A stretch of 64,000 nucleotides of DNA from a virus. Where the stretch lies: the IMG/VR virus record IMGVR_UViG_3300003323_001324, positions 93,578 to 157,577 of that record, one strand, 5' to 3'. The position numbers and the translations under genes are program-made. Positions 110 through 64,000 of the stretch are shown piece by piece (position 1 is the stretch's first letter; every line of letters begins with the position of its first letter). Under the pieces are notes generated by a model. That model worked only from the letters and a program-made list of their open reading frames with translations. It did no database searches and had not been told where the DNA came from.

Positions 110-3100
110 ATGACCATCGGACCGTTCACGACCTACGCGCCGCCCGGAGTCTACACCCAGACCATCGTGGACCCCGTTGTGGGGCAGCTGCTCGGAGGCC
201 TCCGGGTCCCGGTCATCATCGGCGTTGGACAGGAGACCCTGACCCAGACGGACGTGGAGATGATCCGCGGCTCCTCGAGCTTTGCGGACACGCCGATCTT
301 CGGCGAGGACCCTACGGGCCGATGGGTCGTCGGCGGCACGGCGAACAACCCGATCCTCGGTCAGCAGGACGGGAGCCGCGCCTCGTTCCGCGTCAGGAAC
401 TACCCGATCGTCACGGGCGAGGGTTCCGGCAAGACGAACTACGACGTCTCGAAGGTCTCGGTCTCGGTCAACGGTCAGCAGACGGTGGTCGCGCAGTGCG
501 ACGGCCTGAACGGCATCATCTCCCTGCTCGTCCCTCCCGGCCCGAACGACGTTGTCTCGGTCAACTACTTCTTCCACCGCAAGGACACCCGCATCACCGA
601 CAACGTGTCGGCGCAGGTGACCTCCGGCCCCGCGGTCCTCGTCACGCCGAAGGCGGAGACCTACGAGATCCAGGCTGACGTCAACGACCTCCTCGAGGTC
701 TACGTCAACGACTCGACCTCCGTCTCGACCGTCAAGCTCACGCCCGGCACCCGCTCGGCTTCCGACATCGCCAGCGACATCAACGCCGCGGCGATCTCCG
801 GCCTGACCTCCTCGGTCCACCTCGACGCGGAGGGCCTCGCCCACGCGCAGCTCGTTGCCCTCGGCAACGTCCGCATCGGCTCCGGCGCCGCCAACGGCAT
901 CCTGGGCTTCAACCCCGGCGACTACACCGGCCGCAACAGGACCTTCCGCGTCTTCAACGGCCCGATCGTCGACGGCTCGGACGGCGGCATCACCACCACC
1001 GACACGACCAAGGTCGTCGTCATGGTGAACGGCCTGCAGGTCGTCCCGTCCTCGGTCGACGGCGCCAACAGCGACGTCACCCTTCCGTTCGCCCCGAACG
1101 ACGGCTCCATCGTCACGGTCCAGTACTGGTTCAACACCTGGCAGGACACGTTCGACTACCTGCCGAACTCGAACGTCGTGTTCGTCGGCAACGTGGGCAT
1201 CGCCCCCGGCCGCCGCGACTACCTCAACGGCCCCGACTTCGTCATCGTCAACGACGGCGACCAGTCCAAGATCGTGTGGGGCACCTCGTGGCAGGTCGTG
1301 GCCGGCGACACCACCGGCTCCACCCCGTTCGACTCCACCCAGGTCGTCGGCATGCTGGTGGACAACCGGATCTTCGGCGTCCCCGTCTCCCGCTACACCG
1401 ACCCGACCACGAACACGGTCTCGACGACCCGCTTCGTCCTCCCGCTCCAGGCCACGACCGGCAACGGCCGCGATACGCCCCTCGGCACCAGCCTGTACCA
1501 GACGATCACGAACGGCCGCATCGACCTCCCGACGAACCGCCCGGACCTCGTCACCGTGTACGTCGGCAAGAGCTTCCGCGACGCGTACGCCCGCCCGCCG
1601 GTCACCGTGCTCGAGGTCGACTCGGCGACGAACATCATCACCCTGAAGGACCCGGTCCCCGCGGACCTGGCCGCCTTCGCGACCTTCTGGTACAGCACGC
1701 TCCAGGAGGACACCTACACCCTCGAGGTCGCGACCCCCGGCCCGAGCGGCGTCGGCAAGTACACCATCCGCTCGCAGGCGCAGAACAACGCGCTCTTGTA
1801 CGGCATCAAGTTCGGCACCAAGACCGCCCTCCCGCAGAGCGTCCAGTGGCCGAGCGGCGTGCAGAACGTGCCGGACGCGATCCACTACGGCGGCCACCCC
1901 GTCGCCGAGACGGTCACCGTCCAGTTCCTGACCTCGCTCCTGCCCGCCTCCCACGCGTCGTTCTCGAACGCCGAGTCAGACCCGTACGACATCTACACCT
2001 ACACCCGCGTCTTCGGCGGGATCGTGGTCGACGGCAACGCCCCGGTCTCGGTGGACCTCTCTACGGCCTTCAAGGCGCAGCTGCTCAGCCAGCCCGTCAC
2101 GACCCCGTTCGCGGCCCTCCCGTCCACCGCCCGCCTGGTCCTCCAGATCGACGGCGTGACCATCACCGTGAACCTGAGCGGCCTGACCTCGGTCTCGGCC
2201 GTCGTCTCGGCGATCAATTCGGCCGTCGACGCCGACGCCCAGGCCCACGCCGACGGGAGCTCCACGTTCGCCACCACGGCCCCGAACAACCTGGCCTCTT
2301 CCGTCACCTACGGGACGGAGGAGCTCCTCAAGGTCGTCGGCAGGAACGTCAAGTCGGCCACGAACGGCCTGCTCTCCAACGTGAAGGTCCTGTCGCCGAC
2401 CGCGGCAGGCCAGACCAACGGCGCGGCGGCCCTCGGCCTCTCGCCGAACCTGGAGAGCCTCGGCTCCTACAACGCCCTGAACGAGCCGGCCCAGCTCGTC
2501 GGCACCAAGACCGGCGCGTACAACATCTCGGCCGGCATCAACGACCTCTTCCTGTTCGGCATCGACGGCCAGAGCTACTCCGCGCAGCTCCCCGCCGGCA
2601 CCGCCGTCCCGGTTCAGGCCGTCGTCGACTACATCAACGCCGGCTACGCCGCCACGGCCCCCGCGGCCGACAAGGCGACCATCCTGGCCGCGGCGGTGAC
2701 CCTCGGCAACGAGATCAAGTCGGACTACAACAACCACCGCACCGCGGTCGGCGTCCACGTCTCGGACGACTCGACGAACATCGTGACGGCGACGAACGCG
2801 ACCGACCTCGCGACGCTGCTCACCCTGTGCGCCGACATCCGCTCGAAGTACCACGCCCACATCGCGAGCACCGTGTTCCACCTCGCGGCGGACACGGAGC
2901 ACACGATCTCCGAGCCCGCCCCGACGGACCTCGCCTCCGCCGTGCGCTTCCTGTACGCGGCCAAGACCGCCTACAACGCGCACATCGCGGACACGACCTA
3001 CCACCAGATCGCGGACGGCTCGAACGCCACCTCGGCCTCGAACGCCCAGGTCGCGGCGCGCGTCGGCCAGGGCGCCCAGGCCGGCCTCGTCGTCCTGGAC

Positions 3101-9202: not shown

Positions 9203-10693
9203 ATGAGTCTGTCCAGGGTCGCTGCTTACCTGAGCTCCCTCGCCCCGGCCGAGTACCGGGTGTCGGACGCCGCCGCGGGGGTGGTGAACTACCTCCTGGA
9301 CTCCTATTTCCAGAAGGTGGACCAGAGGCACGCCGCGGCGGACGCGGGCCGCCGCCCCGTCCCCTACGACCTCGTCGCCTACATCAAGGAGCTCTGGCTC
9401 GGCGCGGAGGTCCACAACTGCCTCAGCCTCTCCCAGGGCTACCCCGCCTACGCCAAGAGCCTCAACGCCTGGGCCTTCTCCCGCCTCTTCTCCGCCTTCG
9501 CCGGCCCCGAGGCCCCGTACGACATCGTCCCCTTCCTCGAGAGCTACGAGTGGAAGGAGGCCGTCAAGGGCGAGTTCAAGATCGAGTCGGAGCAGCTGAA
9601 CGTCAGCCTCACCGAGTCGGCCACGATCCCCGTCTTCGGGACCTTCTTCGTGCGGCACCGCGTCACCGGCGCCCAGCTCGTCGTGAGCTGCGACTTCTGC
9701 TTCTACCGCAACGGCTGCCTCGTCTCCGTGATGTCGAACCCCGCCAACCAGGCGGACGCCGAGCGCTTCTACGCCGACCTTCACGCGTCGATGCGCACGA
9801 ACGACATCTACCTCAACCGGTGCCTCTCCTTCGACAAGGGGAAGCTGGACTTCTTCGGCATCAAGCCGACCTCCTGGGGCGACGTCATCCTCAAGGACGA
9901 CAAGAAGCTCCAGATCCGGGACAACACGGTCGGCGTCCTGTCGAACATGTCGGCCCTCGCGTCCGTCGGCATGATCCCGAACCGGAACGTCATCCTCATT
10001 TCCCCGCCCGGCATGGCGAAGACCACCATGTTCCGGGCCACGTCGGACGAGATCGAGGGCTCCGCCACGCGCATCTGGTGCACCGGCAAGTCCATTCTCT
10101 ACCCCGACCACGTGACGGCCATGTTCGAGGCCGCCCGCTCTCTGGCCCCCTGCATCATCTTCATCGAGGACATGGACCTCTTCGGCGGCGACCGCAACAC
10201 GCTCGGCCGGGACAGCTCCGTGCTCAACGAGTTTCTCGCCCAGCTCGACGGGGCCCAGGCCAACTCCGGCATCGTGGTGATGGCCTCCACCAACGACATC
10301 GCCTCCATGGACGAGGCCCTCGTGAACCGGCCCGGGCGCTTCAGCGTGAAGGTCGAGATCCCCTACCCGGACGACGAGGACCGCCGCCTCATGCTCCGGA
10401 AGTTCATGGGGTCCCTCAACGTCGTCCCGGACCAGTCGGTCACCCCCGACACCATCAAGACCGTCATCGACATGTGCGACGGCTTCACGGGCGACTACGT
10501 CAAGTCCGTGGTCGAGGCCGCTGTCATCCGGGCCGTGGCCGCCCGCAGGTCCGAGGGCGGGAAGGTGACGGTCAACTCCGACGACCTCATCTCGGCCGTC
10601 GAGCAGGCCCTGCAGAACTTCAAGATCGGCAAGAAGGCGAAGAAGCACATCCAGGTGGACGTCGCCCTTCAGGACGAGAAGATGCCGGGCTGA
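9203..10693 (+). CDS. Classic-clade AAA+ ATPase (single AAA module, FtsH/Cdc48-like)
   Basis: Variant Walker A SPPGMAKT, Walker B IIFIEDMD, sensor-1 MASTN and SRH/Arg fingers DEALVNRPGRF. Confidence 0.88.
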   Translation: MSLSRVAAYLSSLAPAEYRVSDAAAGVVNYLLDSYFQKVDQRHAAADAGRRPVPYDLVAYIKELWLGAEVHNCLSLSQGYPAYAKSLNAWAFSRLFSAFAGPEAPYDIVPFLESYEWKEAVKGEFKIESEQLNVSLTESATIPVFGTFFVRHRVTGAQLVVSCDFCFYRNGCLVSVMSNPANQADAERFYADLHASMRTNDIYLNRCLSFDKGKLDFFGIKPTSWGDVILKDDKKLQIRDNTVGVLSNMSALASVGMIPNRNVILISPPGMAKTTMFRATSDEIEGSATRIWCTGKSILYPDHVTAMFEAARSLAPCIIFIEDMDLFGGDRNTLGRDSSVLNEFLAQLDGAQANSGIVVMASTNDIASMDEALVNRPGRFSVKVEIPYPDDEDRRLMLRKFMGSLNVVPDQSVTPDTIKTVIDMCDGFTGDYVKSVVEAAVIRAVAARRSEGGKVTVNSDDLISAVEQALQNFKIGKKAKKHIQVDVALQDEKMPG

Positions 10694-10723
10694 TAGCCCT
10701 TCAATTCCGACAGAGGAAAGACC

Positions 10724-11236
10724 ATGAACAAGGAAGCAGCCGTAAAGAGTCTGATCGCCGCGTCCCGCCGCCTGGCCCAGATGGACCCGCAGGACGAGGC
10801 CGTCTCGCGCACTGTCGCCGAGATGCAGGAGACCGCGAAGCTGCTCTCCGAGCAGGCCCGGGAGGACAAGTCGTCCCCCTGGGGCTCTCAGTCCATGAAG
10901 GACGACATCGACTCCATCGGCGACCAGATCAAGCGCCTGAAGGCCGCCTCGGCCATCCCGGCCGCCAACTACCGCCGCATCTACGACATCTGCAGCTCGT
11001 TCGAGCGCGCCTGGGCCGTCGCCTCGCGCCCCCAGAACGCCGCCGTCCGCCCGAAGGTCGCCGGCCTGCTGAAGAAGGTCGCCGGCATCTTCGCCGAGGT
11101 CGACACCGTCCAGGACCTGGCCAAGCCGCTCGACGCCATCGAGAAGGCCGTCCACAGCCTGTACGGCGACCAGTCGAAGAACAGCACGTACTACTTCGAC
11201 CGCCGCGGCAAGGGCCACCACTCGCAGGGCGAGTGA
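10724..11236 (+). CDS. Hypothetical helical protein
   Basis: SD (GAGGA), strong GC3 bias, co-oriented directly after the ATPase. Confidence 0.75.
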   Translation: MNKEAAVKSLIAASRRLAQMDPQDEAVSRTVAEMQETAKLLSEQAREDKSSPWGSQSMKDDIDSIGDQIKRLKAASAIPAANYRRIYDICSSFERAWAVASRPQNAAVRPKVAGLLKKVAGIFAEVDTVQDLAKPLDAIEKAVHSLYGDQSKNSTYYFDRRGKGHHSQGE

Positions 11237-11242
11237 CCCCCG

Positions 11243-11674
11243 TCAGGCCTTGCGCCTGATGAAGTCCCCGAGAGACGCGCTGACGGGCCCCGAGCGAGGG
11301 GCCTCCGGCTCTCGGGGCGACAGCCCCTCCGCCGTCCTGTCGTAGCCCGGGACGCGCTTCTCCCTCTCCCGCTTGACGACGCGGGCCAGGGCCTTCCGCA
11401 CCTCCTCCTCGGTGTGCTCCCGGTTGATGATGAGCACGGGGATGTCGGGATATCTGCGGAAGTGCTTCTTCAGGAACTTCCGGGAGCTCTTGACCTGGAC
11501 CGGCATGTCCCCGACGTCGTGGGTCTCCACGACCACGTCCATGCCCCGGGCGTCCTCCTCCTCGGTCGCCATCCGTATGCGCTTGACCCAGGGGAACACC
11601 CGCGGCCAGCACTGGTCGAAGCAGACCGACGCCAGCATCTCGTGCTCCCGGCTTTGCTTCTTGAGCGGGTCCAT
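11243..11674 (-). CDS. Putative PD-(D/E)XK-fold nuclease
   Basis: EEDARGMDVVV...PVQVKS matches the D...(Q/E)xK pattern. TAGCGT box 5 nt upstream. Confidence 0.6.
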   Translation of the reverse strand: MDPLKKQSREHEMLASVCFDQCWPRVFPWVKRIRMATEEEDARGMDVVVETHDVGDMPVQVKSSRKFLKKHFRRYPDIPVLIINREHTEEEVRKALARVVKREREKRVPGYDRTAEGLSPREPEAPRSGPVSASLGDFIRRKA

Positions 11675-11714
11675 CCCCCACGCTACGCCGGCCGGGGCCG
11701 ACCCTTCGGGCCCC

Positions 11715-11921
11715 TCACGTCTCCGGGAGGGGGAAGTGCGACGCGTACAGGCTCATGAGCTCCGAGTCGGCCGGGACGTCCTGGTCGAGCAGCCTCGTGT
11801 CGTGGCACCTCCGTATGACGGCCGCGACCGCCCCGTAGGTCTCCTGCCTCCTCTCCGGCGTCGCGTAGACGAAGGTCGTGAGGATGAGGAACAGTGCCTT
11901 TCTCTCGTCGTCCCTTTCCAC
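11715..11921 (-). CDS. Small hypothetical protein
   Basis: Fills the gap between two co-oriented minus-strand genes, with plausible codon usage. Confidence 0.45.
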   Translation of the reverse strand: MERDDERKALFLILTTFVYATPERRQETYGAVAAVIRRCHDTRLLDQDVPADSELMSLYASHFPLPET

Positions 11922-11951
11922 CCCGGCCCTCTGTCACCAAAGGCCTCATTC

Positions 11952-13772
11952 TCAGAGCACCTCGTACTGGAAAGAGTAGCAGAAGCCGACCGGGGTCGTC
12001 CCCTCCGTCAGAGGCCGGTACCTCCACTTCGTCATCGCGCTCCGGAACGCCGGGACGAGCGCGGGCGTCCGGGGGCTCGTGACGCTGACCGACGTCGGGG
12101 CCCCGTTGGTCCCCACGCACATCCTGACGCTCGCCTGGAACGGCCCCATGTTCTCTATCGCGCTCGGTATCTGGGGCCGATAGGGCGCGACCGTCGGGCT
12201 TATCGTCAGGCGACGGTGTCCCTCGGAGGAGGACAGGGACCTCGGCCCCGCAGGAGGGGCCTGAGGGTCGAGCATCGTCTCGAAGGGGGTCTTCGACCGC
12301 GGCGCCGTCTTCGGCGGCGGCGCGATGGCGGCCGCCACCGTCGGCGCCGCTGGCGGGGCCGTGTGAGCCTCTTCTACGGGAGCCGGCACCTCCTTCTGCG
12401 CCGGCTCGACCGCCGGGGCCACGCTGGGCTCGGCCTTCTGGACCCTCTCCGCCGTCCGCCTCGCGGCCGGCGCCTGCGGCGCGGGCCTCTCCTCCGCGGC
12501 GGGTTGCGGGGCAGGGGGCGGCTGGACTATCACGGTCCGGACCTCTCCCGGGAGGTACACCGTCTTCTCGACGACCTCCTTCTCCTTGTACAGGTAGGCC
12601 ACGGGGACGAGCAGGGCCATCGGCACGAATATGATCCCCATGACCCAGAACAGGGCCTTCCGGATCTCCCCCATCGTGTCGACCGGGGCCTCCGGCGGCC
12701 TTGACCTGGTCTGGACCCTGGAGACGTCCGGGGAGCTCCGCTCCGCAATCTCCTCGGCCGCCTTGATCTGCGCCGTCGTCTCGCTTATCCGGTCCGACAG
12801 GAGCCTCTCCAGGTACTCCTGGATCTCCCGCTCGATGCCCGGCTCGAACGCCTCCGGGACCGCGGCCTCGAGCGCCCGGAGGACCTCCTCGGCCCCCGAG
12901 TACCTCTTGTCCCTGTTCTTCTCCAGGGACTTCATGACCACCTTCTCCAGCTCCTCCGGGTAGAAGTCCGTCATGTCCGACGGGAGCATCGGCGGCTTGT
13001 CGGAGATGATGCGCGCCAGGATCCCGTCGGGGGTCCCCGCGACGTCGCGGAACGGGTGGGACCCCGTGGTCGCCATGTAGAGCATGACGCCGACGGCGAA
13101 GACGTCCACCCTCCGGTCCACGGTCTGCTGCATCAGCACCTCCGGGGCCAGATAGGACAGCTTCCCCTTCAGCTCCCCCGCCTGCGTCATAGCCGCGCTG
13201 GTGGAGGCCTTCGCTATGCCGAAGTCCAGGAGCTTGGCGACGCCCCCGTACGTCACTATGACGTTCCCCGGGGTCACGTCCCGGTGCACCAGCCCCAGCG
13301 GCCGGCCGCCCTCGTCCACGAGGTCGTGGGCCGCCTGCAGGCCGCGGCACACCTGCCCTATGATGTTCACCGCCACCTTGAGCGGGAGGCCGCCGGCCGC
13401 CTTCGCGGCCTTGAAGAGGCCGAGGAGGGTCTCCCCGCGCACGAGCTCCATGGCGAGGTAGCACACTCCCCGGTGCTCTCCGAAGTCCTCTACGGCCACC
13501 ACGTTCGGATGGTGGATCATCGACGCGAGCCTGGCCTCCTGGAAGAGCATGTCCTCCATCCGCGCCTCCTCGTGCTCTGACGCCAGGATCGTCTTCACGG
13601 CGAGGAGCCTCTTGAAGCCCCTTCCGCCCTTGGCGCGGGCGACCCACACCCTCCCCATGCCTCCCTTCGCCACGGGCGTCAGGAGCTCATAACGGCCGTC
13701 GAGCACGGTCCCCGTCGCCAGGTCCGACTCCGACATCTTTTCCCGGACGTTCTCGGTCTTGGTTGTCTCCAT
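11952..13772 (-). CDS. Hanks-type Ser/Thr protein kinase with TM helix, Pro/Ala linker and C-terminal TonB-C-like domain
   Basis: GGMGRVW, AVK, HRDVTPGN, DFG, YLAPE, DVFAVG. TM segment ALFWVMGIIFVPMALLVPVAYLY. C-terminus VRMCVGTNG...AMTKWRYRP...PVGFC. Start at ATG 13772 with a GGAG SD. Confidence 0.92.
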   Translation of the reverse strand: METTKTENVREKMSESDLATGTVLDGRYELLTPVAKGGMGRVWVARAKGGRGFKRLLAVKTILASEHEEARMEDMLFQEARLASMIHHPNVVAVEDFGEHRGVCYLAMELVRGETLLGLFKAAKAAGGLPLKVAVNIIGQVCRGLQAAHDLVDEGGRPLGLVHRDVTPGNVIVTYGGVAKLLDFGIAKASTSAAMTQAGELKGKLSYLAPEVLMQQTVDRRVDVFAVGVMLYMATTGSHPFRDVAGTPDGILARIISDKPPMLPSDMTDFYPEELEKVVMKSLEKNRDKRYSGAEEVLRALEAAVPEAFEPGIEREIQEYLERLLSDRISETTAQIKAAEEIAERSSPDVSRVQTRSRPPEAPVDTMGEIRKALFWVMGIIFVPMALLVPVAYLYKEKEVVEKTVYLPGEVRTVIVQPPPAPQPAAEERPAPQAPAARRTAERVQKAEPSVAPAVEPAQKEVPAPVEEAHTAPPAAPTVAAAIAPPPKTAPRSKTPFETMLDPQAPPAGPRSLSSSEGHRRLTISPTVAPYRPQIPSAIENMGPFQASVRMCVGTNGAPTSVSVTSPRTPALVPAFRSAMTKWRYRPLTEGTTPVGFCYSFQYEVL

Positions 13773-13864
13773 TCTCCGACCCTCTCGACTTTGGCGGTCT
13801 CCTAACCGCCTTTTCGTCGTCCCGTGCCCTATCCGGCCCCTTCGCGGACTTCCGGCCCGCGCCC

Positions 13865-14098
13865 CTACCGGTCTTCCCACACCATGCTGTAGGGCGTCCT
13901 CTCGTTACCGCACTCGCACCTCGGCGCCTCGAGCCCCCTGGCCTCGCCGACGGCGAAGGGGACGGAGGCCGTGAGCACGCGCCCGCACTCCCCGCACGGG
14001 GCCGAGAACGGCTCCATCCCGAACCTTCTCCTCCACGCCTCGGGGTCGGCCCCGTGCAGCAGTCTCAGCCACCTCGTCCGGGTGAGGACGAGGCGCAC
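13865..14098 (-). CDS. Small Zn-ribbon protein
   Basis: CGECG...CECG motifs. Confidence 0.5.
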   Translation of the reverse strand: MRLVLTRTRWLRLLHGADPEAWRRRFGMEPFSAPCGECGRVLTASVPFAVGEARGLEAPRCECGNERTPYSMVWEDR

Positions 14099-14099
14099 C

Positions 14100-14348
14100 T
14101 CAGCCCTTCTTTCTGCGCTCGTCGAGGTAGAAGTCCATGAGCTCGCTCCTCGGACCGCCCGCGAACATGACCGGGTCCTGGAGGAGGTCGAGCTCCGGCG
14201 TCCTCCCGACGTCCAGGACGCCCATGTCCGTGGCCTTCTTCACCGTGGCCCTCACCGCGGCCTCGCTCCTCGCCCTCTCGTCCGGTCCCTGGTGGACGAA
14301 GTTCACGAGTATGAGATGGAGGGCGCTTCGCTCGACCGAGGCGTTCAT
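14100..14348 (-). CDS. Small hypothetical protein
   Basis: 3' part of track ORF 14100..14897. ATG 14348 has a TAGGGT box 5 nt upstream. Confidence 0.5.
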   Translation of the reverse strand: MNASVERSALHLILVNFVHQGPDERARSEAAVRATVKKATDMGVLDVGRTPELDLLQDPVMFAGGPRSELMDFYLDERRKKG

Positions 14349-14385
14349 GCAACACCCTACGCCTTCGATTGCCCATCCCGTGGTC

Positions 14386-14919
14386 ATGGACCAGGTCCCG
14401 AAGCTTGTCCGCGGCCCCGCCTTCCACCTGGACGGCGACGGGCGGTGGGACGTCCAGGAGCTTCCCTGGGAGGTGCGCCAGAAGGCCGAGTACTCCGGCG
14501 AGATCGAGATCGAGGGCTTCCCCGCCGTCGTCTTCGAGATGCCGGACGGCGACCAGTGGGCCCAGAAGGCCCCCGGGTCTCCCTCCCCGAAGGGGGAGGA
14601 GGCCGTGGAGGACGCTCTCGCCCAGGTTTCGGCCTCCTTTTCGGACCCGTTTCTCGAGATGGGAAAGCGCGTCGTCGCCAAGGTCGAGCTGGAGCAGAAC
14701 CAGCTGGCCTCCGCCCGCGCGCTCCTCCAGGAGCTCAAGGTCTGCAGGGACTCCATCGACAAGGCCCTTCGCCACAGCCGCGCCCTCTCGACCGACTCCT
14801 CCCTCTCCTGGATCCACGACTCGCTGGAGGCCAAGAAGGAGGAGGTCGACGGCATGGCGCAGGGCATCCGAGAGTCGCTCGAGTACCTGACCCGCATGGA
14901 CTTCCCCGACAGCCCGTAG
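14386..14919 (+). CDS. Hypothetical acidic protein with a C-terminal coiled coil
   Basis: GC3-biased part of track ORF 14137..14919, starting at MDQVPK. Confidence 0.6.
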   Translation: MDQVPKLVRGPAFHLDGDGRWDVQELPWEVRQKAEYSGEIEIEGFPAVVFEMPDGDQWAQKAPGSPSPKGEEAVEDALAQVSASFSDPFLEMGKRVVAKVELEQNQLASARALLQELKVCRDSIDKALRHSRALSTDSSLSWIHDSLEAKKEEVDGMAQGIRESLEYLTRMDFPDSP

Positions 14920-14963
14920 ATCCTCCGGACGCCGCGTTACGGCCCCGCAGGAGAAACGGGACC

Positions 14964-15305: not shown

Positions 15306-15308
15306 CTG

Positions 15309-44445: not shown

Positions 44446-44448
44446 ATC

Positions 44449-49842: not shown

Positions 49843-50375
49843 CCGAGTACATGATCGTCGAGACCTACGCGAACACCCTGTATGAGGGTCACCGGTGCCA
49901 CAGGTACTGGGTGCCCGGAGGCTTCTTCATCATGGTCGGCGGCTCCCTCCTCGGGCCCGAGGACTGGGAGCACCTCCGGTCCGAGTACGGCATCACTCAC
50001 GTCATCAACGTCGAGACGGAGCACGACGATGCCGGGAAGGTGCCCCCAGAGCGCCTGTGCCAGGCCCGCGTCCCCGACGACGGGACCCCGTTCCCGGCGG
50101 CGAAGGTCCTGGCCGCCTGCCTCTTCGCCGCCGAGAAGGTGGCCAACGCCCCGGCCGGCGAGGATCCGCGCTTCTACGTCCACTGCCAGATGGGCGGCTC
50201 CAGGAGCCCCGCGTTCGCCTACGCCCTGATGCGCGCGGTGTTCGAGATGTCCGCCGAGGGCGCCCTGGCGGCCATCCGGGGGACCCACAAGTCCGACTAC
50301 GGCCACCACGACTTTCACAAGTCGTATATAGCCAGCGTCGAGGCGGCCCTCGCCCCGGTCTTCGGGGGCGGCTGA
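49839..50375 (+). CDS. Dual-specificity (PTP-superfamily) phosphatase
   Basis: HCQMGGSRS (CX5R P-loop), GITHVINV and a putative acid loop VPDDG. Confidence 0.88.
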   Translation: MTEYMIVETYANTLYEGHRCHRYWVPGGFFIMVGGSLLGPEDWEHLRSEYGITHVINVETEHDDAGKVPPERLCQARVPDDGTPFPAAKVLAACLFAAEKVANAPAGEDPRFYVHCQMGGSRSPAFAYALMRAVFEMSAEGALAAIRGTHKSDYGHHDFHKSYIASVEAALAPVFGGG

Positions 50376-56474: not shown

Positions 56475-58922
56475 ATGGCTTTCACGGGAAGACTCGGGAC
56501 CCCGAACAGCAGGTTCGCCGACATCGTCTTCGCCGCGGTGGATGGGTTCGGGCCCGCCGCCCCGGACTTTCAGGCGCACCAGCTCACGTCCCGGAGGTTC
56601 CGCGTCCTGTTCAACCTCCAGGTGACCGAGAGCGCGCTCTCGGCCGCCGCCTACTCGCTCTCCGCGGTCGGGTCGGGGACGGTCCCTCCCATCGTGTCGG
56701 TCACGTGGTACGACGAGACCCACGACTCGGTCGTGATAGAGGTCTCGGCGCCGCTGACGACCTCGGCCCAGTACACGGTCTCCGTCTCCTCCGTCGAGGG
56801 GTCCGACGGGGACTTCGTCCTCTCCGCCGCCAAGAACTTCACGGCGAACGTCGTCGACCCGCCGAGGGCCCGCGGGGCCTTCCTCTCGAAGCGCGGCCAC
56901 GTCGACGTCCTGTTCGACAAGCCCGTCGGCCCCTACTCCTCGGGGGCCTCGTTCTCCATCCGGGACGCCTCTGGAGGCCCGGCCGTCGCCATGACCCAGG
57001 CTGCCTGGGGCGGCGAGGGGATCCCGGAGACGACGCTCCGCCTCCAGATACCCGCCGGCGTCCCCACGGCGAACGCCTTCGTCATCTCGACCTCCGCCGT
57101 CGAGGACTACTCGCAGAACACGTCCGCCGAGGACGTGCCGCTCACGCTCGTCCTCCGGTCGCCCGCGCCCTACTCCTACGCGGACCTGACCCAGCTCCAG
57201 CTGACGGACGCCTTCGTCACCGACGTCTCCTCGGACTTCCTGAGGACGGCGAACGTCCGGGTCTTCTTCAGCTGCCCCGTCCAGGGGGCGACCTCCCGAG
57301 GCTCCTGGTCGGTCTTCGCGGAGGCCGCCCACAGGCGGACCGACGACCAGGATGTCCTGACCGCCCCTCCGGCCACGGACCTCCCCTCCCTCATCGTCCT
57401 CCTGAACGACCTGAAGTCCGTCCTGAACAGCCACCTCCGGATCGATCAGGTCCACCTGGCCCGGGCGACCGCCGACCTGGTCACCGCCCCGGACGCCTCC
57501 GACCTCCCGACCTCGGTCGACCTGGCCAACGCCCTGATAGGCTCGCTTCCGGGCCACATGCTCCGTCCCCGGGTCCACGTCTACCTCGACACCGTCAACG
57601 CGGTCTCCCTCGCCCCGGTCCCGCCGGGCGACCTCCCCGCCGCCGTGTCCGCCGCGAACGCCCTCGCCTTGTCCTACTCCGGGCACCTGGAGGAGGAGTA
57701 CCCCCTGTCCTTCTCGGAGGCCTACCAGTCCCCGATCGGGGACATCACCGCGTACGCCGAGGAGCTCGTCCCCGACCTGTGCATGGACGTGGAGGGGCCG
57801 CACACTTACTACGCCGACCTGCGCGTCATCCTGGACGTGGAGCGCCCCTCCCTGAGGGTGGAGGCCAGCCTGACCAGCGAGGACGGCGGGAGCTCCTGCT
57901 CCCCCTCCGACTACACGGGCAACATCGTCGCGCGCTCGGCCGACCACCCGGTGACCGTCCTCTCCTCGCTCGTCTCGGTGGACGAGGCCGTGTCCCTCCG
58001 GACGGACCGGAACGTAGACTCCGTCTCGGACTCGCCGCTCGTCATAGTCGGCGAGGACGGGGTCGAGATCCCGACCACGCCCGAGCTCGCGGCCACCCTC
58101 CCCTCCCTCCTCTGGGCCTACAACAACGCCCTGGAGGCCTACCGGCGACACATCGTCCCCGGCGCCGCGGGCCACCAGGTCGACGACGACGTCAACATCG
58201 TCACCCCGTCGGACTACGCCTTCCTCCCCCTCGCCTCCGCGATGTCCGGGGCGAACGACGTGCGGCAGAAGGTCATGGCCCACATGGCCTCCGCGATCTA
58301 CCACTACCACGCAGACCCGACCGCGGTCACGGCCCCTCCGGCCACGGACCTCGAGTCCTTCGCCGTCCTCGTGGCGGACCTGGCCTACGTCCTCTCGTCC
58401 CACCTTGTCCGCGTCGGGCCCCACGTCTTCGCCGGCTACCGGATGGTCTCCGCCCCGGTCTTCGACGTCATGGTCCTCTCCTCCGCCCACATGAGGGACG
58501 GCACCGAGAGCCGGGCCCGTGGGAGCCTGATGGACCACCACGTCTACAACGGCCTCCCGGTCTCCCCTCCCCCCGCCCAGCCCGCGGCGAGGTCTCATCT
58601 TGTCCCGGTCGACCTCCCCTTCGTCGCCCTCGCAGTCCGTCCGTCCCTCGCGTCCGCCCTCCCGCAGAGCGGGCTGTCCTTCGACCCCGTCCGGGGCCCG
58701 AAGCTGGAGGCGGACGCCGTCCAGGCCTTCTTCTCGAAGCCGATGAGGGAGGTCCCGGTGACCCCGGCCAACCTCTCTTTCACCGGCGGCTCCATCCAGT
58801 TTATCGGGTCCGGGTGGGTTAGCCCTTCGCTCGCCTCCGTCGCCGTGACGCGAATGGAGAACATCCCATACTCCCTGGTCGCCTCCGGAATGACCGACGT
58901 CGCCGGCAACGAGGTGTACTGA
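56475..58922 (+). CDS. Virion structural protein with Ig-like domains and His-His-Asp repeats
   Basis: Ig-like beta modules at both ends. Two clusters of TDL..L.N.L....H......H repeats. Confidence 0.7.
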   Translation: MAFTGRLGTPNSRFADIVFAAVDGFGPAAPDFQAHQLTSRRFRVLFNLQVTESALSAAAYSLSAVGSGTVPPIVSVTWYDETHDSVVIEVSAPLTTSAQYTVSVSSVEGSDGDFVLSAAKNFTANVVDPPRARGAFLSKRGHVDVLFDKPVGPYSSGASFSIRDASGGPAVAMTQAAWGGEGIPETTLRLQIPAGVPTANAFVISTSAVEDYSQNTSAEDVPLTLVLRSPAPYSYADLTQLQLTDAFVTDVSSDFLRTANVRVFFSCPVQGATSRGSWSVFAEAAHRRTDDQDVLTAPPATDLPSLIVLLNDLKSVLNSHLRIDQVHLARATADLVTAPDASDLPTSVDLANALIGSLPGHMLRPRVHVYLDTVNAVSLAPVPPGDLPAAVSAANALALSYSGHLEEEYPLSFSEAYQSPIGDITAYAEELVPDLCMDVEGPHTYYADLRVILDVERPSLRVEASLTSEDGGSSCSPSDYTGNIVARSADHPVTVLSSLVSVDEAVSLRTDRNVDSVSDSPLVIVGEDGVEIPTTPELAATLPSLLWAYNNALEAYRRHIVPGAAGHQVDDDVNIVTPSDYAFLPLASAMSGANDVRQKVMAHMASAIYHYHADPTAVTAPPATDLESFAVLVADLAYVLSSHLVRVGPHVFAGYRMVSAPVFDVMVLSSAHMRDGTESRARGSLMDHHVYNGLPVSPPPAQPAARSHLVPVDLPFVALAVRPSLASALPQSGLSFDPVRGPKLEADAVQAFFSKPMREVPVTPANLSFTGGSIQFIGSGWVSPSLASVAVTRMENIPYSLVASGMTDVAGNEVY

Positions 58923-61900
58923 TGGTCGACTTCACCGGCATCGCCTCGGTCGCCGACCGGACCCTGTTCACCAACAAGGGCCCGATAGTCAAGAAGCCCC
59001 TGCCGCTCCTGGTCGGGTCCGACCTGAGGGTCTCCTCCTTCTCCGGGGTGACGATAGCCTCGGGCGGGTTCTCCCAGGCGGACGTTGGGAGGCTCCTGAA
59101 GATCGAGGGTTCCCCCGGAGGGAGGAACGACGGGACCTTCCAGATCTCCGAGGTCCTGTCTGCCACCGCGCTCCGCCTCCAGGGCGCGTCCTTCAGCATC
59201 TTGGACGAGGCGGCGACGGTCCAGTCCTGCTGCGACCTCGCCAACGACCTTAAGGTCCAGTACAACCTCCACCGGACGAGGCTCGTGACCGTCGGCGGCG
59301 AGCAGGTCGGCGTCCACGGGACGGACGACGTGACCAACGTCGCGAACGCCGGGGACGCCGTGGACATGGCGTCCGCCATCACCCTGGCCAACGACCTCCT
59401 GGCGAAGTTCGACGCCCACGCGGTCCTCGTGTCCGGGGACCCGAAGGTCCACCTCGAGCCCGACACGGACAACGTCGTCGCCGTCGGCCCGGCCGGGTCC
59501 CTGTCGGACCTCGTCACCCTCCTGAACGAGATCCGGCGCCGCTACGAGCTCCACCGGCAGGACCACTTCGTGCACCAGCACGTGGACCTCGTCGACCGGG
59601 TCGGGGCCCCTCCGGTGCGCGCGACCGTGGACGTCTACCCGGGCCCCCTCACCGGTCCCTTCTCCTGGACCCTCCTCGACCCTCGCTACGGGCAGCCCGC
59701 CGACAGCCCCTACGACGTCCAGGTCACCGTCAACGGGAGCCCGGCCGCGGTCGACGCGGTGTTCGGCCTCATGGGCGCCGTCGTCCTCTCGTCCAAGCCC
59801 TCCTGGGACGACGAGGTCTCCGTCGACTACGACCACATCAGCAACCCCCCTTCTCGCTTCATGCGCCTGAACTCCCCGGAGTTCGTGCTGAACCAGTACG
59901 GCAACACGGCGCTCGCCGGGCTCCCGAAGCACAGGTACCGGTCGAGCTCCCACCTGCTCACGGACGTGGACGGCCCGGAGCTGGCGGCCCCGTTCCAGCC
60001 CGTCCGCCGAGGCTGGAAGTACAAGGCCGTGGAGCGCGCCTACACGGCGGTCCTGAACGACCCGACGAGCCTTCTCCTCAACGTCCCGACGAACAAGCTC
60101 TCCTATCCCGTCCTGGTCGAGCGCGTCCCGGAGGTGACCGTCAGGTACGACCCGCTCACGCTCCCCCAGAACGCCGTCGACCCCTGGACGTTCGAGGGTC
60201 AGGGCACCCTCTCCCTGGCCCCGGGCGGGACCGCCCTGACGGTCGTCGACTCGAGCACCCAGACGGGGGTCGACAGCCGCCCGCCGTTCTTCACCCACCC
60301 TCTGAACCTCGACACCGAGAGCGCCGTGTCCTCGGCCTTCCGGGCCAGGATGTCGGCCGACCCGGCCGTCTTCCTCCCCGACGGCGTCTTCAGCGGCGTC
60401 AGCTTCGGGGTCGCCGACGGGCGCCACATCGCGATCGCCGGCTTCATACTGACCGAGGCGACCGGCCTGACCTCGGCCGTCGTCATGGCGAACGACGCCA
60501 AGGCGCAGCTCAACGCCCACGTGCAGAACGTCGGGTCCCACTTCCCGGACGACCTCTCCGACCAGGTGCTGGTCGTCGACGCGACGGGGCTCCCCTCCCT
60601 CCTCGTCCTCGTGAACGCCCTGAGGGCCTCCTATTCCTCGCACGCGGCCAAGGGCTCGGGCGTCGGGCACGTGCACCTGGCGGCCGACTCCGTCAACGAG
60701 ATATCGCTTCCGGAGGCCGAGGACCTGGCCTCGGCCGTCGCCCTGGTGAACGAGATCCGGGCGAGGCTGAACGCCCACGGGACCCAGGCCGGCGTCCACT
60801 TCGCGGCCGACTCCTCGCACCAGGTCTCCCTCGTGCGCCAGGCCGGGATCCTCACGAACCGCGGGTTCCCGGAGCTCGCCTCCTCCTGGAACGCCTTCGC
60901 GTCCGACTGGACCCAGTACAGGACCTACCGTGTCGCCCGGGACCCGGACGGCGGGGTCGGGGTCTACGTCAACGGCGGCATCGTTGCCTCCGCGGCCGCC
61001 GCCGTCGGGGACCTGCCCGCCCCCTCGGACGTCGACGCGCGGTTCGACGTGATCCAGCAAGCCTTCTTCGGGACCATTGGCCGCGACTCGAAGAGCTCCA
61101 GCGACTGGCAGTTCGTCCGGGTCAACGTCAGCCCCGTCGACCACGACCTCATCGAGAACAATAAGCAGGTCGACTACCCCGCGGCCGTCGTCCCGGAGCT
61201 CGACCCTGATGCTCCCTGGATCACCTACGGCCAGGGCGGGGCCGAGCGGATAGTGGCCCCCGGCGTGCTCATGCTCGACTCGACGGACTCGGCCGCTCCC
61301 GAGGACGTCCCCGAGCTTGGCCTCGTGTCGGGCGCCTACCGGGGCTTCGTCCGCTACGAGCCTATCCTGTCCGTGGACAACGCCATGGTGGCCGAGTTCC
61401 GGATGGGGGCCGACTACTGGACGCAGAGCGTCTCGGACCGCGCCTTCGGCCTGTTCATGTCCGACGGGACCTTCTCGGTCCAGCTCGCCTTCCTGCAGGC
61501 GTCCCCGACCCCGGCCGTCACCGTCGGGACCGTCGCCGAGCCCTTCGTCCTCGTCAACGGGGACACCCTCATCGTCCAGATGGGGACCGACCCGGCCGAG
61601 ACCGTCTCCTTCCTCATCCCGCCGGGGACGAACACCGCTGCCTCCGTGGCGGCGCGCATCAACTCCGTGCTCGGGTTCGCGTTCGCGTCGGCCGTCTCGG
61701 GCCACGTGCAGCTCGCCTCCGAGGGCCTCGGGGCCTCGGCCAGCTTCTCCATCATCGCCGGCTCCTCGCTCGCCAAGCTCGGCCTCTCCCCCGGCGTCTA
61801 CTTCGGCTCCGACTCGAGCCCGGAGCCGCGCATGTCGTGGTTCGGGGCGAACCTGCCGGAGCTGGACGACCCGACGTGGGTGCGCAGCGGCGGCCAGCCG

Positions 61901-64000
61901 GCGTCCCTCTACAACCGGGTGCTCCGGGTCACGGACTCCTCGGTGGGCGACTACGCCGCCTGGACGCTCGAGGACCCGCTGGTCACCAATCAGGTCCTGA
62001 ACCCCCTGACGGACTGGAAGTTCGACGTCCGCCTCTCCGTCCTGTCGTTCCTCGCCGGCCCGACCGTCCCCGCTTCCGGCCCCCATCAGCCCCTCGACTT
62101 CGCGGGCGCCCTCATCTCCGTGGACGAGGGCCCGTCCGGGAAGAACGTCGAGCTCCACCTGGCGACCTCCTCCTCCTCGGGCGCCCCCTTCCTGAACCTC
62201 CTTACCTACGACCAGTCGAGCGGGAGCCTCGAGGTCGTCGCCCAGTACGCGTTCGGGTGGAACGACGGCAGGCCCCACACCCTGAACGTCTACACGAACA
62301 AGGGCGCCAACTCCCTCATGGTCCTCGGCGACGGGGCCCTCCTCGCCCCGTACGCGGGCCCCTCCCCCTCCTACTCCGACCTCAGGTCGGGCGTGTCCGG
62401 CCCGTCCATGTCCTTCGGCTCCGGCGGGGAGCCCGTGGTCGGGTCCGACCTGCGCGTCGCCAAGTCCGTCGTCGACTGGTACTCGGTCGCCGCCTTCAGG
62501 GACAGCAAGCTCGCCGACCCTGGGTCGGCGGACCGCCGCTATGTCGGGGTCTACAAGGGCGGTCCGGCCGACGTCCTCAGCTCGTACTACCTTCACCAGG
62601 TTGACTGGGCCCCGTACCACGTCTACCGCGTCGTCCGGGACCCGTCCGCCGGCCTCCAGGTCTACCTCGACGGCTCGGCGACCCCGTCCATCTCGGTCCC
62701 CTACGACGTCCTGAACCTTCCGCCCTCCTCGACCTCCTTCCTGGACGAGGCCGCGCGGGGCCGTCCCTTCGTCGCGTTCGGGGCCTTCTCGCCGAGCTCC
62801 ATAACCCGGACTCGCTGGGACTACCTGCGCTACTCCGTCGGGAAGATCACCCTTACCGACCTCCTCGTCCCGCCCCACCAGGTCCTGAACCAGGCGAACG
62901 TCGTGTCCTCCCCGGACCACCTGCGGACCCAGGTGGCGCACCGTCACCAGGGCTTCACCGTCTACTCGGGAGGCACGCCGACGGACGAGTTCATGGCCGA
63001 CGCGGCCGTCTCCCCGTTCACCGTCCTCGGGGACGGGACCCCTCCCGTCCCGGCCACCCAGAACCTGGAGACCCGCCACGGGATGGTGAAGGTCGGGACC
63101 CCGATGGAGAGCGTCCCGGCCGTGGACGTCGTCAACTTCAAGGGCTTCACCTCGGACCTCGTGGACGACCTTGTCAACGTGGCCGGGGAGGACGCCGTCA
63201 CGGAGGAGGACGCCGTCCAGTCGGTCGTCGACCTCGCCAACTCCTTCCGGGGCGCCTACGAGTCACACCGGACCTGGCCCGGGGTCCACTCCGTAAACGA
63301 CACCTTCAACAGCATCTCGGCGTCCGCCGCCACGGACCTTCCGACCGCCATCACCCTCCTGAACGACGAGAAGGCGAAGTTCAACCTCCACCTTGTCCAG
63401 GCCGGCGTCCACGTCCCGGACGACGAGGAGCACGAGGTCGGCGCGCCGGACGCCACGGACCTCCCGTCCGCCGCCGAGCTCGCGAACGCCCTCCGCGAGG
63501 CCTACGCCGGGCACGCGGGGACAGGGGCCTTTCACCTCTCTCCCGACCTCGTCGACACCGTCTCCGCCCCGGACGCCTCGGACCTTCTGTCGGCCGCAGT
63601 CCTCGCCGCGACCGCCGCCGACGCCCTCCAGGACCACGCGCTTTCCACAGCCTTCCACGAGGTCGCCGACTACCCGAACGGAAGGTTCGCCCCGCCGGCC
63701 CTCCCGGGCGTCGGCAAGGCCGGGGTCGCCGGCCTCTCCGTCCTCACCACCTCGGACTCCCTCGGCCCGGGCCAGCTCGTCCTCTTCGTCGACGGCCCGA
63801 ACTCCGGCCAGTCTCGAGTTGTTGTTTCCAAGCTCTCGTCCGCCCAGTACTCCGTCGCCCCGGGCTTCATCTTCAACGACCCGGGCCGCAGCCGCTACAT
63901 CAGGCTCGGAAGGACCGCCCTCACGACGGCCAGGGCGACCGCGGGAGTCGGCTACTCGCAGGTGGACGTCACGGGCGAGCCCGTCTCCCCGGCTGTCGGG
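58922..64000 (+). CDS. Giant virion structural protein (>1690 aa, runs off the window) with His-His-Asp repeats
   Basis: TGATG-coupled ATG at 58922 (MVDFTGIASVADRTLFTNKGP...). The same frame was checked by hand near 59.3, 60.5 and 63.3 kb. Missing from the track, consistent with having no stop in the window. Confidence 0.8.
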   Translation, partial: MVDFTGIASVADRTLFTNKGPIVKKPLPLLVGSDLRVSSFSGVTIASGGFSQADVGRLLKIEGSPGGRNDGTFQISEVLSATALRLQGASFSILDEAATVQSCCDLANDLKVQYNLHRTRLVTVGGEQVGVHGTDDVTNVANAGDAVDMASAITLANDLLAKFDAHAVLVSGDPKVHLEPDTDNVVAVGPAGSLSDLVTLLNEIRRRYELHRQDHFVHQHVDLVDRVGAPPVRATVDVYPGPLTGPFSWTLLDPRYGQPADSPYDVQVTVNGSPAAVDAVFGLMGAVVLSSKPSWDDEVSVDYDHISNPPSRFMRLNSPEFVLNQYGNTALAGLPKHRYRSSSHLLTDVDGPELAAPFQPVRRGWKYKAVERAYTAVLNDPTSLLLNVPTNKLSYPVLVERVPEVTVRYDPLTLPQNAVDPWTFEGQGTLSLAPGGTALTVVDSSTQTGVDSRPPFFTHPLNLDTESAVSSAFRARMSADPAVFLPDGVFSGVSFGVADGRHIAIAGFILTEATGLTSAVVMANDAKAQLNAHVQNVGSHFPDDLSDQVLVVDATGLPSLLVLVNALRASYSSHAAKGSGVGHVHLAADSVNEISLPEAEDLASAVALVNEIRARLNAHGTQAGVHFAADSSHQVSLVRQAGILTNRGFPELASSWNAFASDWTQYRTYRVARDPDGGVGVYVNGGIVASAAAAVGDLPAPSDVDARFDVIQQAFFGTIGRDSKSSSDWQFVRVNVSPVDHDLIENNKQVDYPAAVVPELDPDAPWITYGQGGAERIVAPGVLMLDSTDSAAPEDVPELGLVSGAYRGFVRYEPILSVDNAMVAEFRMGADYWTQSVSDRAFGLFMSDGTFSVQLAFLQASPTPAVTVGTVAEPFVLVNGDTLIVQMGTDPAETVSFLIPPGTNTAASVAARINSVLGFAFASAVSGHVQLASEGLGASASFSIIAGSSLAKLGLSPGVYFGSDSSPEPRMSWFGANLPELDDPTWVRSGGQPASLYNRVLRVTDSSVGDYAAWTLEDPLVTNQVLNPLTDWKFDVRLSVLSFLAGPTVPASGPHQPLDFAGALISVDEGPSGKNVELHLATSSSSGAPFLNLLTYDQSSGSLEVVAQYAFGWNDGRPHTLNVYTNKGANSLMVLGDGALLAPYAGPSPSYSDLRSGVSGPSMSFGSGGEPVVGSDLRVAKSVVDWYSVAAFRDSKLADPGSADRRYVGVYKGGPADVLSSYYLHQVDWAPYHVYRVVRDPSAGLQVYLDGSATPSISVPYDVLNLPPSSTSFLDEAARGRPFVAFGAFSPSSITRTRWDYLRYSVGKITLTDLLVPPHQVLNQANVVSSPDHLRTQVAHRHQGFTVYSGGTPTDEFMADAAVSPFTVLGDGTPPVPATQNLETRHGMVKVGTPMESVPAVDVVNFKGFTSDLVDDLVNVAGEDAVTEEDAVQSVVDLANSFRGAYESHRTWPGVHSVNDTFNSISASAATDLPTAITLLNDEKAKFNLHLVQAGVHVPDDEEHEVGAPDATDLPSAAELANALREAYAGHAGTGAFHLSPDLVDTVSAPDASDLLSAAVLAATAADALQDHALSTAFHEVADYPNGRFAPPALPGVGKAGVAGLSVLTTSDSLGPGQLVLFVDGPNSGQSRVVVSKLSSAQYSVAPGFIFNDPGRSRYIRLGRTALTTARATAGVGYSQVDVTGEPVSPAVG

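What the first reader, a model, noticed from the sequence alone, without database searches (positions are those of the whole stretch)
2670..63670. A ~40-aa His-x6-His-x3-Asp repeat shared by the sheath and two distal structural proteins: candidate virion metal-binding module
Seen: one motif, roughly TDLxSAxxLxNxL(K/R)xx(Y/F/L)NxH-x6-H-x3-D-xxNxV, recurs in clusters of 3-4 in three different genes. Sheath at ~2670-3030: YNNHRTAVGVHVSDD, YHAHIASTVFHLAAD, YNAHIADTTYHQIAD. ORF 56475 at ~57330-57690 and ~58090-58440: LNSHLRIDQVH, LPGHMLRPRVHVYLD, YRRHIVPGAAGHQVDD, VMAHMASAIYHYHAD, LSSHLVRVGPH. ORF 58922 at ~59230-59600, ~60470-60830 and ~63220-63670: e.g. LNAHVQNVGSHFPDD, LNAHGTQAGVHFAAD, YESHRTWPGVHSVND, FNLHLVQAGVHVPDD, YAGHAGTGAFHLSPD, LQDHALSTAFHEVAD. 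That is about 19 copies. Known: two His plus a carboxylate is a common transition-metal ligand set, and sheath subunits occur in many copies per tail. Inference: an amphipathic helix plus His loop forms small bundles that display many metal sites along the tail and baseplate. Possible roles are stabilisation, docking between proteins, a metal/pH trigger for contraction, or iron piracy/receptor mimicry. I do not recognise this as a named family.
Basis: partly seen in the sequence, partly recalled or inferred. Interest (0 to 1): 0.85.

Follow-up and report, generated by a model that had tools for sequence, protein, structure and literature searches.

The report
Histidine-capped three-helix module on phage tail
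Three tail proteins of an uncultured large phage carry an undescribed, widespread domain of about 125 residues, made of three 41-residue repeats that fold into one small three-helix bundle ending in a cluster of near-invariant histidines that probably clamps a metal ion, although no metal binding has been shown.

Summary
A profile built from the repeats finds exactly 19 copies with a 41-aa period. All lie in three + strand genes: 3 in the probable giant sheath, 3+3 in the 815-aa protein, and 3+3+4 in the giant last protein, which the contig end cuts off. There are no copies elsewhere in the 157.6-kb virus contig.

Three consecutive repeats form one domain. AlphaFold2 gives pLDDT 95.4, and my own coevolution analysis independently gives a parallel, in-register three-helix bundle with return linkers in the grooves. 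The first His sits in a core position at the end of each helix.

In about 1,090 repeat units from 154 other proteins, the first His is about 100% conserved, the second His about 90%, and the Asp about 80%.

No Pfam, NCBIfam, PHROGs, PDB, BFVD or GenBank-phage match exists. An exhaustive search still finds 1,691 protein clusters. They include small proteins encoded beside capsid genes and two TcA-toxin-like proteins.

The best reading is a single-chain copy of the six-His metal site found on the axis of trimeric phage fibres (phi11 Gp45 type). Metal binding is untested.

This scan has already found the same module on four other genomes.

The parts
110..4777 (+). P0001, 1555 aa, probable giant tail sheath. 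It has conserved N- and C-terminal core regions and about 1000 aa of insertions.
   Evidence: GC3 is 0.97. PF17482 Phage_sheath_1C matches the extreme C-terminus at E 0.007, below the Pfam cut-off. Among 15 C-terminal homologues, 4 hit PF17482 (best 8e-6) and 2 hit PF04984. Orthologues P0009, P0082, P0076 and P0061 are 62-70% identical.
2660..3019 (+). Sheath module S1: three 41-aa repeats (aa 851-970) with six His and three Asp.
   Evidence: HMM E-values are 1.3e-15 to 1.8e-15. The AF2 model of aa 847-977 has pLDDT 95.4 and pTM 0.88, with helices at 9-30, 54-73 and 95-114.
56475..58922 (+). P0002, 815 aa, a beads-on-a-string virion protein. It has Ig-like beta domains, bundle, beta domain, bundle, then beta sandwiches.
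   Evidence: PF13205 Big_5 matches at 7.6e-6. The full-length AF2 model has pLDDT 90.5 and pTM 0.85. Foldseek finds only generic Ig/FN3 and S-layer-like arrays. About 38 orthologous cluster representatives exist.
57360..57689 (+). Module A1 (aa 296-405). It has five His. The third repeat ends at its first His, and the chain leaves straight into the next beta domain.
   Evidence: See: helices 303-321, 344-362 and 387-404, with a strand starting at 408. Across orthologues the sixth His is replaced by L/T/I/M/V/S/Y.
58089..58433 (+). Module A2 (aa 539-653), with six His.
   Evidence: See (H559, H567, H603, H610, H643 and H650 are invariant in 33 orthologues).
58922..64000 (+). P0003, more than 1692 aa, a giant distal tail protein. 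Its start overlaps the stop of P0002 by one base, and its 3' end is cut by the contig end.
   Evidence: About 44 orthologous representatives of 1.5-2.6 kaa exist. No Pfam, PHROGs or PDB hit.
59201..59593 (+). Module B1 (aa 94-224). Its His loops are longer than in the other modules.
   Evidence: The position is conserved at about residue 100 in nearly all orthologues.
60449..60814 (+). Module B2 (aa 510-631).
   Evidence: The position is conserved at about residue 505 in orthologues.
63194..63553 (+). Module B3 (aa 1425-1544): three repeats.
   Evidence: HMM E-values are 5e-15, 7.5e-17 and 3.4e-15.
63560..63673 (+). A fourth repeat (aa 1547-1584). It is probably the first repeat of a further module that is interrupted by inserted beta domains and lost at the contig end.
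   Evidence: HMM E-value is 5e-10. In the 63-65% identical orthologue P0012, four repeats are followed by about 150 aa of beta domains and then five more repeats, so 4+5 = 9 = three modules. A last triplet follows.

Best explanation
Each group of three 41-aa repeats is one autonomous domain: a single-chain, parallel, in-register three-helix coiled coil about 3 nm long. After each helix the chain makes a short His loop and then runs back down a groove to start the next helix. Both termini therefore lie at the same end, and the domain can be plugged into loops of other proteins.

The first His of each repeat occupies the last core (d) layer of the coiled coil, so three His point at the axis. The second His, usually six residues later in a non-helical loop, folds back over them. 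The result is a six-His cage at the distal tip. The Asp four residues after the second His acts as a second-shell hydrogen-bond partner.

I think this cage most likely holds one transition-metal ion (Fe, Zn or Ni). [quoted passage not shown] The ion would lock the bundle into a rigid, stable surface strut or decoration on the sheath, the distal tail proteins and, in other phages, probably the head.

Basis of each step:
- Shown computationally: the repeat, the triplet domain, the bundle topology and the conservation.
- Inferred: convergence of the six His.
- By analogy only: the metal and the stabilising role.
For: - 19 units in groups of 3, 3+3 and 3+3+4.
- In 154 other proteins a group size of 3 is the mode: 143 of 366 groups, against 15 of size 4. 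An apparent 4+5 in P0012 is nine repeats split by inserted domains.
- AF2 on a 126-sequence alignment gives pLDDT 95.4 and pTM 0.88, with three helices plus three ordered linkers. The same bundles appear twice in the full-length P0002 model.
- Independent mean-field DCA on 288 triplets gives same-level helix contacts 9-9, 12-12, 16-16 and 19-19. It also gives K20(n)-D5(n+1) at 4.3, N17(n)-A6(n+1) at 3.1 and A3-E18 at 2.6, against a background s.d. of 0.3. This means parallel in-register helices with linkers in the grooves. The a/d core positions are 9, 12, 16, 19, 23 and 26, so the first His (26) is a core residue.
- VIA-align's best match is a single-chain gp41 helix bundle (Z 7.8, rmsd 3.0 A over 115 residues), which has the same topology.
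- Conservation: the first His is present in all 1086 units (1082 by the automatic anchor; the other 4 carry it on inspection). The second His is present within x4-12 in 90% (x6 in 62%). The Asp is present in 80%. All six His are present in 209 of 280 triplets.
- In sheath orthologue P0009 a beta domain of about 75 aa is inserted between the two His of one repeat, and H-x3-D is retained after it. This fits a loop whose two ends stay together.
- phi11 Gp45 has His42-x7-His50 at the C-terminal end of a trimeric coiled coil, six His around Fe3+ and a carboxylate second shell (PMC4901313).
Against: - No coordinates are returned by the tools, so His-His distances in the model were not measured.
- Coevolution signals inside the His loops are weak: 29-36 at 1.0, 35-31 at 0.74, 32-32 at 0.63.
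- 21-25% of triplets have only five or fewer His, and a whole orthologous family (module A1) lacks the sixth. A strict His6 octahedron is therefore not obligatory.
- The two His are one heptad apart. If the helix continued they would be too far apart to share an ion, so the reading depends on the predicted helix break.
- No sequence or fold homology to any metal-binding structure was found.
- There are no metal data of any kind.
Confidence: 0.55

Rival explanations
1. Metal-free polar cap or pH sensor. The His layers and Asp form a hydrogen-bonded network that terminates and registers the short coiled coil. The bundle would loosen when the His are protonated at low pH.
For: The bundle is predicted with very high confidence without any ion. 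Five-His variants are common. The Asp is replaced by G/S/N/E/A in about 20% of units. Polar core layers are a known register device in trimeric coiled coils (established knowledge).
Against: Near-absolute conservation of His specifically, with no Gln, Asn or Tyr, over about 1,090 units is unusual for a purely structural polar layer. Buried clusters of six neutral imidazoles without an ion are rare. AF2 never models ions, so its confidence says nothing either way.
Confidence: 0.2
2. One reading: each repeat carries its own His-His-Asp (2-His-1-carboxylate) metal site. That gives 19 sites in the window and three per bundle.
For: The motif H-x6-H-x3-D recurs in each unit. The domain insertion between the two His in P0009 suggests that the two His of one repeat are close together.
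Against: The first His is in a core d position facing the axis together with its two counterparts. The Asp is much less conserved than the His, at 56% in repeat 3. Repeats occur as triplets, not singly.
Confidence: 0.1
3. A binding tip. The exposed His cluster, with or without a metal, is the business end of a small stalk. It would contact host-surface polymers or neighbouring virion subunits, so the module would be an adhesion or docking domain rather than a strut.
For: The module sits in the slot where TcA-like toxins carry variable receptor-binding domains, next to PA14. It also occurs in distal tail proteins made of Ig-like domains and in small proteins encoded beside capsid genes. The termini lie at one end and the His at the other (inferred from topology).
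Against: Apart from the His/Asp and the core or linker contacts, surface positions are highly variable, so no conserved ligand surface exists. In module A1 the chain continues out of the His end, which would bury the tip.
Confidence: 0.1
4. The helices assemble between chains. Each repeat would pair with the same repeat of two other subunits, as in ordinary homotrimeric fibre coiled coils.
For: P0003-type fibre proteins are often trimers (general knowledge). Groups of 1, 2, 4 and 5 repeats are detected.
Against: The monomer folds into an intrachain bundle with pLDDT 95. Coevolution shows contacts between repeat n and repeat n+1. The module occurs in a sheath, which is not a trimer. Odd group sizes are explained by inserted domains and weak repeats.
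Confidence: 0.05

Closest known systems
Fe3+ site in the stem of the Staphylococcus phage phi11 receptor-binding protein Gp45 (PMC4901313)
   Same: [quoted passage not shown] A second His lies 7-8 residues later where the helix is interrupted, and a carboxylate at i+4 acts as second shell. It is proposed to act as a lock that keeps the bundle rigid.
   Different: In Gp45 three separate chains each give two His. Here one chain supplies three helix-loop repeats and forms a self-contained domain of about 125 aa that is reused as a plug-in. The spacing is x6 rather than x7. The carboxylate follows the second His, not the first. No sequence similarity was detectable. No metal has been shown here.
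His-x-His iron sites of trimeric beta-helical fibres and spikes (T4 gp37 tip, P2 gpV and phi92 gp138 spikes, R-pyocin fibres)
   Same: Six His from three symmetry-related segments sit around one ion on the axis of a phage tail protein (as summarised in PMC4901313; PMC6116203 was listed).
   Different: Those sites use H-x-H in intertwined beta structure of true homotrimers. Here the motif is H-x6-H in a helix-loop of a single-chain pseudo-trimer.
Single-chain gp41-5 helix bundle (PDB 3o3x), the best structural match
   Same: It has parallel inner helices with return segments packed antiparallel in the grooves (Z 7.8, rmsd 3.0 A, 115 residues aligned, 8% identity).
   Different: It is an engineered construct and is unrelated. 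A Z below about 13 is not significant for helical bundles, according to the tool's own note. It has no His cluster.

Membership tests
Any named protein family (Pfam-A 2025, NCBIfam 20.0, PHROGs v4) | A profile match over the repeat region | tested here: not met
   No hit over the repeats in P0001-P0003 at E <= 0.1 (Pfam) or <= 0.01 (PHROGs). No hit in small single- and double-module homologues or in multi-repeat homologues.
phi11 Gp45-type His6 metal lock on a trimeric coiled coil | Three parallel helices in register | tested here: met
   AF2 model and DCA same-level contacts 9-9, 12-12, 16-16 and 19-19.
phi11 Gp45-type His6 metal lock on a trimeric coiled coil | [quoted passage not shown] | tested here: met
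   The heptad core is 9/12/16/19/23/26 and the first His is at 26. The helices end about 2 residues after it. The second His is at x6 in 62% of units and x7-8 in 15%.
phi11 Gp45-type His6 metal lock on a trimeric coiled coil | Six imidazole nitrogens about 2.2 A from one ion (octahedral) | not testable with these tools
   Model coordinates are not returned and AF2 does not place ions.
phi11 Gp45-type His6 metal lock on a trimeric coiled coil | Homotrimer of three chains, and sequence homology to Gp45 | tested here: not met
   The bundle is intrachain. A profile search of all PDB sequences gives nothing better than E 0.44, to triosephosphate isomerase.
T4 gp37-type H-x-H fibre repeat | An H-x-H motif in a trimeric beta-helix | tested here: not met
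   The motif is H-x6-H and the secondary structure is helix plus loop.
Contractile tail sheath (PF04984 / PF17482), for P0001 | A C-terminal sheath domain at the extreme C-terminus | tested here: inconclusive
   PF17482 matches at E 0.007 (16.8 bits against a cut-off of 26.9), covering profile positions 11-104 of 104 at residues 1464-1552. Of 15 homologues, 4 match PF17482 (best 8e-6) and 2 match PF04984. There is no PDB sequence match. The context includes a Baseplate_J protein.

The most novel reading that the evidence does not exclude
The module is a new, widespread class of single-chain His6 metal-clamped domain that loads one transition-metal ion per triplet onto exposed parts of injection machines: the sheath, distal tail proteins, probably heads, and TcA toxins. 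A virion would then carry hundreds of ions. The metal or the protonation state of the cage would work as an environmental switch for stability, adhesion or firing.
Probability: 0.15. Interest if true: 0.8.

Novelty: new variant of a known kind. Interest (0 to 1): 0.6.

Why it matters
If the cage binds metal, this is a compact, autonomous pseudo-trimeric His6 domain of about 125 residues. Nature has reused it thousands of times on phage sheaths, tail proteins, head-module proteins and Tc-toxin shells, yet it is in no domain database.

Describing it would annotate more than 1,600 protein clusters from metagenomes. It would also help explain how giant sheath proteins of uncultured large phages are built from plug-in modules. 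Finally, it would give protein engineers a natural single-chain scaffold for an axial metal site that so far is known only from three-chain fibres and designed peptides.

If it does not bind metal, it is still a new, very confidently predicted decoration fold with an unexplained invariant His cluster.

Tried and rejected
- My first conservation table gave 100% for all three of H, H and D. That was an artefact of local HMM alignments being trimmed where they stop matching. Anchored recounts give about 100%, 90% and 80%, and I use those.
- Foldseek against PDB and BFVD viral models gave nothing at E <= 1.
- VIA-align wide gave only generic helical-bundle matches with Z <= 7.8.
- PDB sequence searches with the triplet profile, P0001, P0002, P0003 and a sheath C-terminal profile gave nothing.
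- tblastn of three different triplets against 50,697 GenBank phage records found no match, even at E 0.1. Megablast of the sheath gene also found no match.
- The ESM Atlas feature search on the sheath triplet gave no usable hit.
- The raw histogram of group sizes is noisy. Weak repeats are missed, many proteins are fragments, and domains are inserted between repeats. It therefore supports 3 as the mode but does not prove a strict multiple-of-three rule.
- DCA could not settle the geometry of the His loops because the signals are weak and the key residues are invariant.
- Joining the contig's end to its start does not continue ORF 58922 sensibly: it gives a low-complexity, Arg/Pro-rich read-through of 71 codons. 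I therefore treat the gene as truncated, not as wrapped around a circle.

Full report
**What the window is.** The window is the last 64 kb of a single 157,577-bp contig with 68% GC. The tools treat it as a virus record. Genes are told apart by very high GC3. The + strand encodes:
- a 1555-aa protein whose extreme C-terminus weakly matches the phage sheath C-terminal domain;
- an AAA ATPase, RtcB, two collagen-like proteins and a 1155-aa Baseplate_J-like protein;
- at the end, an 815-aa protein and a protein of more than 1692 aa that runs off the contig.

The sheath call is probable, not certain. PF17482 is below its cut-off in P0001. It recurs in 4 of 15 homologues (best 8e-6), and PF04984 recurs in 2. 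No solved structure is detectable by sequence.

**The observation.**
- A simple regular expression already picks out the units in the coding frames of the three genes.
- An HMM iterated on all six-frame ORFs finds 19 units and nothing else. The next best score is 4.7 bits.
- The rest of the contig has none.
- The period is 41 aa. The grouping is 3; 3+3; 3+3+4.
- The modules within the window share only 26-46% aa identity. They are old, and each sits at a position conserved in orthologues.

**How wide the family is.** A profile of the six triplets was scored against 1.84 billion cluster representatives. It finds 1,691 proteins at E <= 1e-3, 941 at <= 1e-10 and 139 at <= 1e-30. Among the best 150:
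- about 44 are orthologues of the giant last protein;
- about 38 are orthologues of the 815-aa protein;
- 4 are orthologues of the sheath;
- the rest are other architectures, namely runs of up to 12 contiguous repeats, proteins with beta-propellers, and small proteins.

None of Pfam, NCBIfam or PHROGs has a model for it. No GenBank phage record matches by tblastn. ESM Atlas clusters that resemble the model or a small homologue are unnamed and mostly viral.

**The fold.**
- AlphaFold2 on the sheath triplet with a 126-sequence alignment gives pLDDT 95.4 and pTM 0.88. The model has three helices of about 20 residues and three ordered non-regular linkers.
- The same two bundles appear in a full-length model of the 815-aa protein (pLDDT 90.5). 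There they alternate with Ig-like beta domains.
- The tools return no coordinates, so I ran my own mean-field DCA on 288 triplets. The strongest couplings recur in each repeat pair:
  - K20 of repeat n with D5 of repeat n+1;
  - N17 with A6 of the next repeat;
  - A3 with E18 of the same repeat;
  - same-level contacts 9-9, 12-12, 16-16 and 19-19 between helices.
- This independently gives a parallel, in-register three-helix coiled coil whose linkers return in the grooves.
- The best PDB alignment, a single-chain gp41 bundle, has that topology too, though the score is not significant for a helical protein.
- The core positions are 9, 12, 16, 19, 23 and 26. The first His is residue 26, so it forms the last core layer.

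**Conservation.** Anchored counts over 1086 units from 154 other proteins give:
- first His: present in all (1082 by the automatic anchor; the other 4 carry it on inspection);
- a second His within 4-12 residues: 90% (exactly x6 in 62%);
- Asp four residues after the second His: 80%.

Per triplet, all six His are present in 209 of 280. The third repeat most often lacks the second His (15%) and the Asp (44%). In module A1 of the 815-aa protein the chain leaves the bundle directly after the third helix. The sixth His is missing in the whole orthologous family. The exposed helix positions are variable.

**Two observations from orthologues.**
- In the sheath orthologue P0009 a beta domain of about 75 residues is inserted between the two His of one repeat, and the H-x3-D is kept after it. 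This suggests that the ends of that loop stay together.
- In P0012, an orthologue of the last protein, four repeats, then about 150 residues of beta domains, then five repeats make nine in all. A final triplet and a C-terminal domain follow. The window's odd fourth repeat is therefore probably the start of a module that the contig end cuts off.
- The number of modules in the sheath varies between orthologues: one here and two in P0082 and P0009. That fits an accessory decoration.

**Mechanism.**
- Three core-facing His at the end of a trimeric coiled coil, a second ring of His from the following loops, and a nearby carboxylate are what the crystal structure of phi11 Gp45 shows around an octahedral Fe3+. 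[quoted passage not shown]
- The same paper lists the H-x-H iron sites of the P2 and phi92 spikes and the T4 gp37 tip.
- I therefore read the module as a single-chain version of that lock, with one site per triplet. I give this 0.55.
- What is missing is any measurement of the His geometry or of metal content.

**Other places the module occurs.**
- Two TcA-like toxin subunits, P0085 and P0087, carry two modules. They lie between a PA14 domain and the ABC_toxin_N and neuraminidase-like domains.
- A family of single-module proteins of 160-180 aa (about 50 clusters) lies zero to two genes downstream of an SU10-type major capsid gene. This held in all four kinds of contig I looked at, after terminase, portal and scaffold genes. 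That is the usual place for a head decoration or head-completion protein.
- The module is therefore a general surface plug-in and not tail-specific.

**Earlier notes of this scan.** The same module was reported on four other genomes, with the same reading. I reached the triplet and His6 idea from the data here and tested it with my own DCA and counts. The pointer to the phi11 paper came from those notes, and I read the paper myself.

**Verdict.** The feature is real. It is an undescribed but widespread domain family whose structure is well supported computationally. Metal binding is plausible but unproven.

Noticed in passing
P0085 (3370 aa) and P0087 (2977 aa; locus L006:1-8931): Two TcA-like (Tc/ABC toxin A subunit) proteins from metagenomes carry six His repeats, which makes two modules. 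The repeats lie between a PA14 domain and the ABC_toxin_N, neuraminidase-like and TcB-binding domains, which is where TcA subunits carry variable surface domains. The module is therefore not restricted to phages.
   Followed up: partly
L007:2943-3473, L010:5001-5537, L011:5001-5549, L012:5001-5528: Single-module proteins of 175-182 aa lie 0-2 genes downstream of an SU10-type major capsid gene in head-morphogenesis clusters of contigs of up to 73 kb (5.4-73 kb), two of which also encode a sheath-sized (505-510 aa) protein downstream. In L007 the neighbours hit the PHROGs head scaffolding family (3.9e-6) and major head protein family (2.3e-17). These proteins are candidate head decoration or head-completion proteins.
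   Followed up: partly
window 58922-64000 (contig end): ORF 58922 has no stop before the contig ends. Orthologues are 1.86-2.58 kaa long, and P0012 shows two beta domains, five more repeats, a last triplet and a C-terminal domain after the point where the window stops. The gene, and so the repeat count, is incomplete here.
   Followed up: yes
P0009 residues about 975-1125 (loci L003 and L004, gene 10001-15829): In this 1942-aa sheath orthologue, small beta domains (weak Pfam E1_FCCH match) are inserted between repeats and, in one case, between the two His of one repeat. The H-x3-D is retained after the insertion. This is nested domain insertion inside the module.
   Followed up: partly
window 58919-58924: The stop codon of ORF 56475 and the ATG of ORF 58922 overlap by one base (coordinates). 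This suggests that the two repeat-bearing genes are translationally coupled.
   Followed up: no
L001:13175-19128, next to P0041 at 10001-11296: On a 342-kb metagenomic contig, a 431-aa two-module protein lies a few genes upstream of a gene cluster made of a GT2/TPR/GT4 glycosyltransferase, an epimerase, and a GT4 fused to a radical-SAM domain. Whether virion proteins that carry the module are glycosylated is unknown.
   Followed up: no
window 49839-50375: A gene for a small dual-specificity-phosphatase-like protein (PF00782 at 2.2e-7, just below the cut-off) sits directly after the Baseplate_J-like gene, inside the tail gene block.
   Followed up: no
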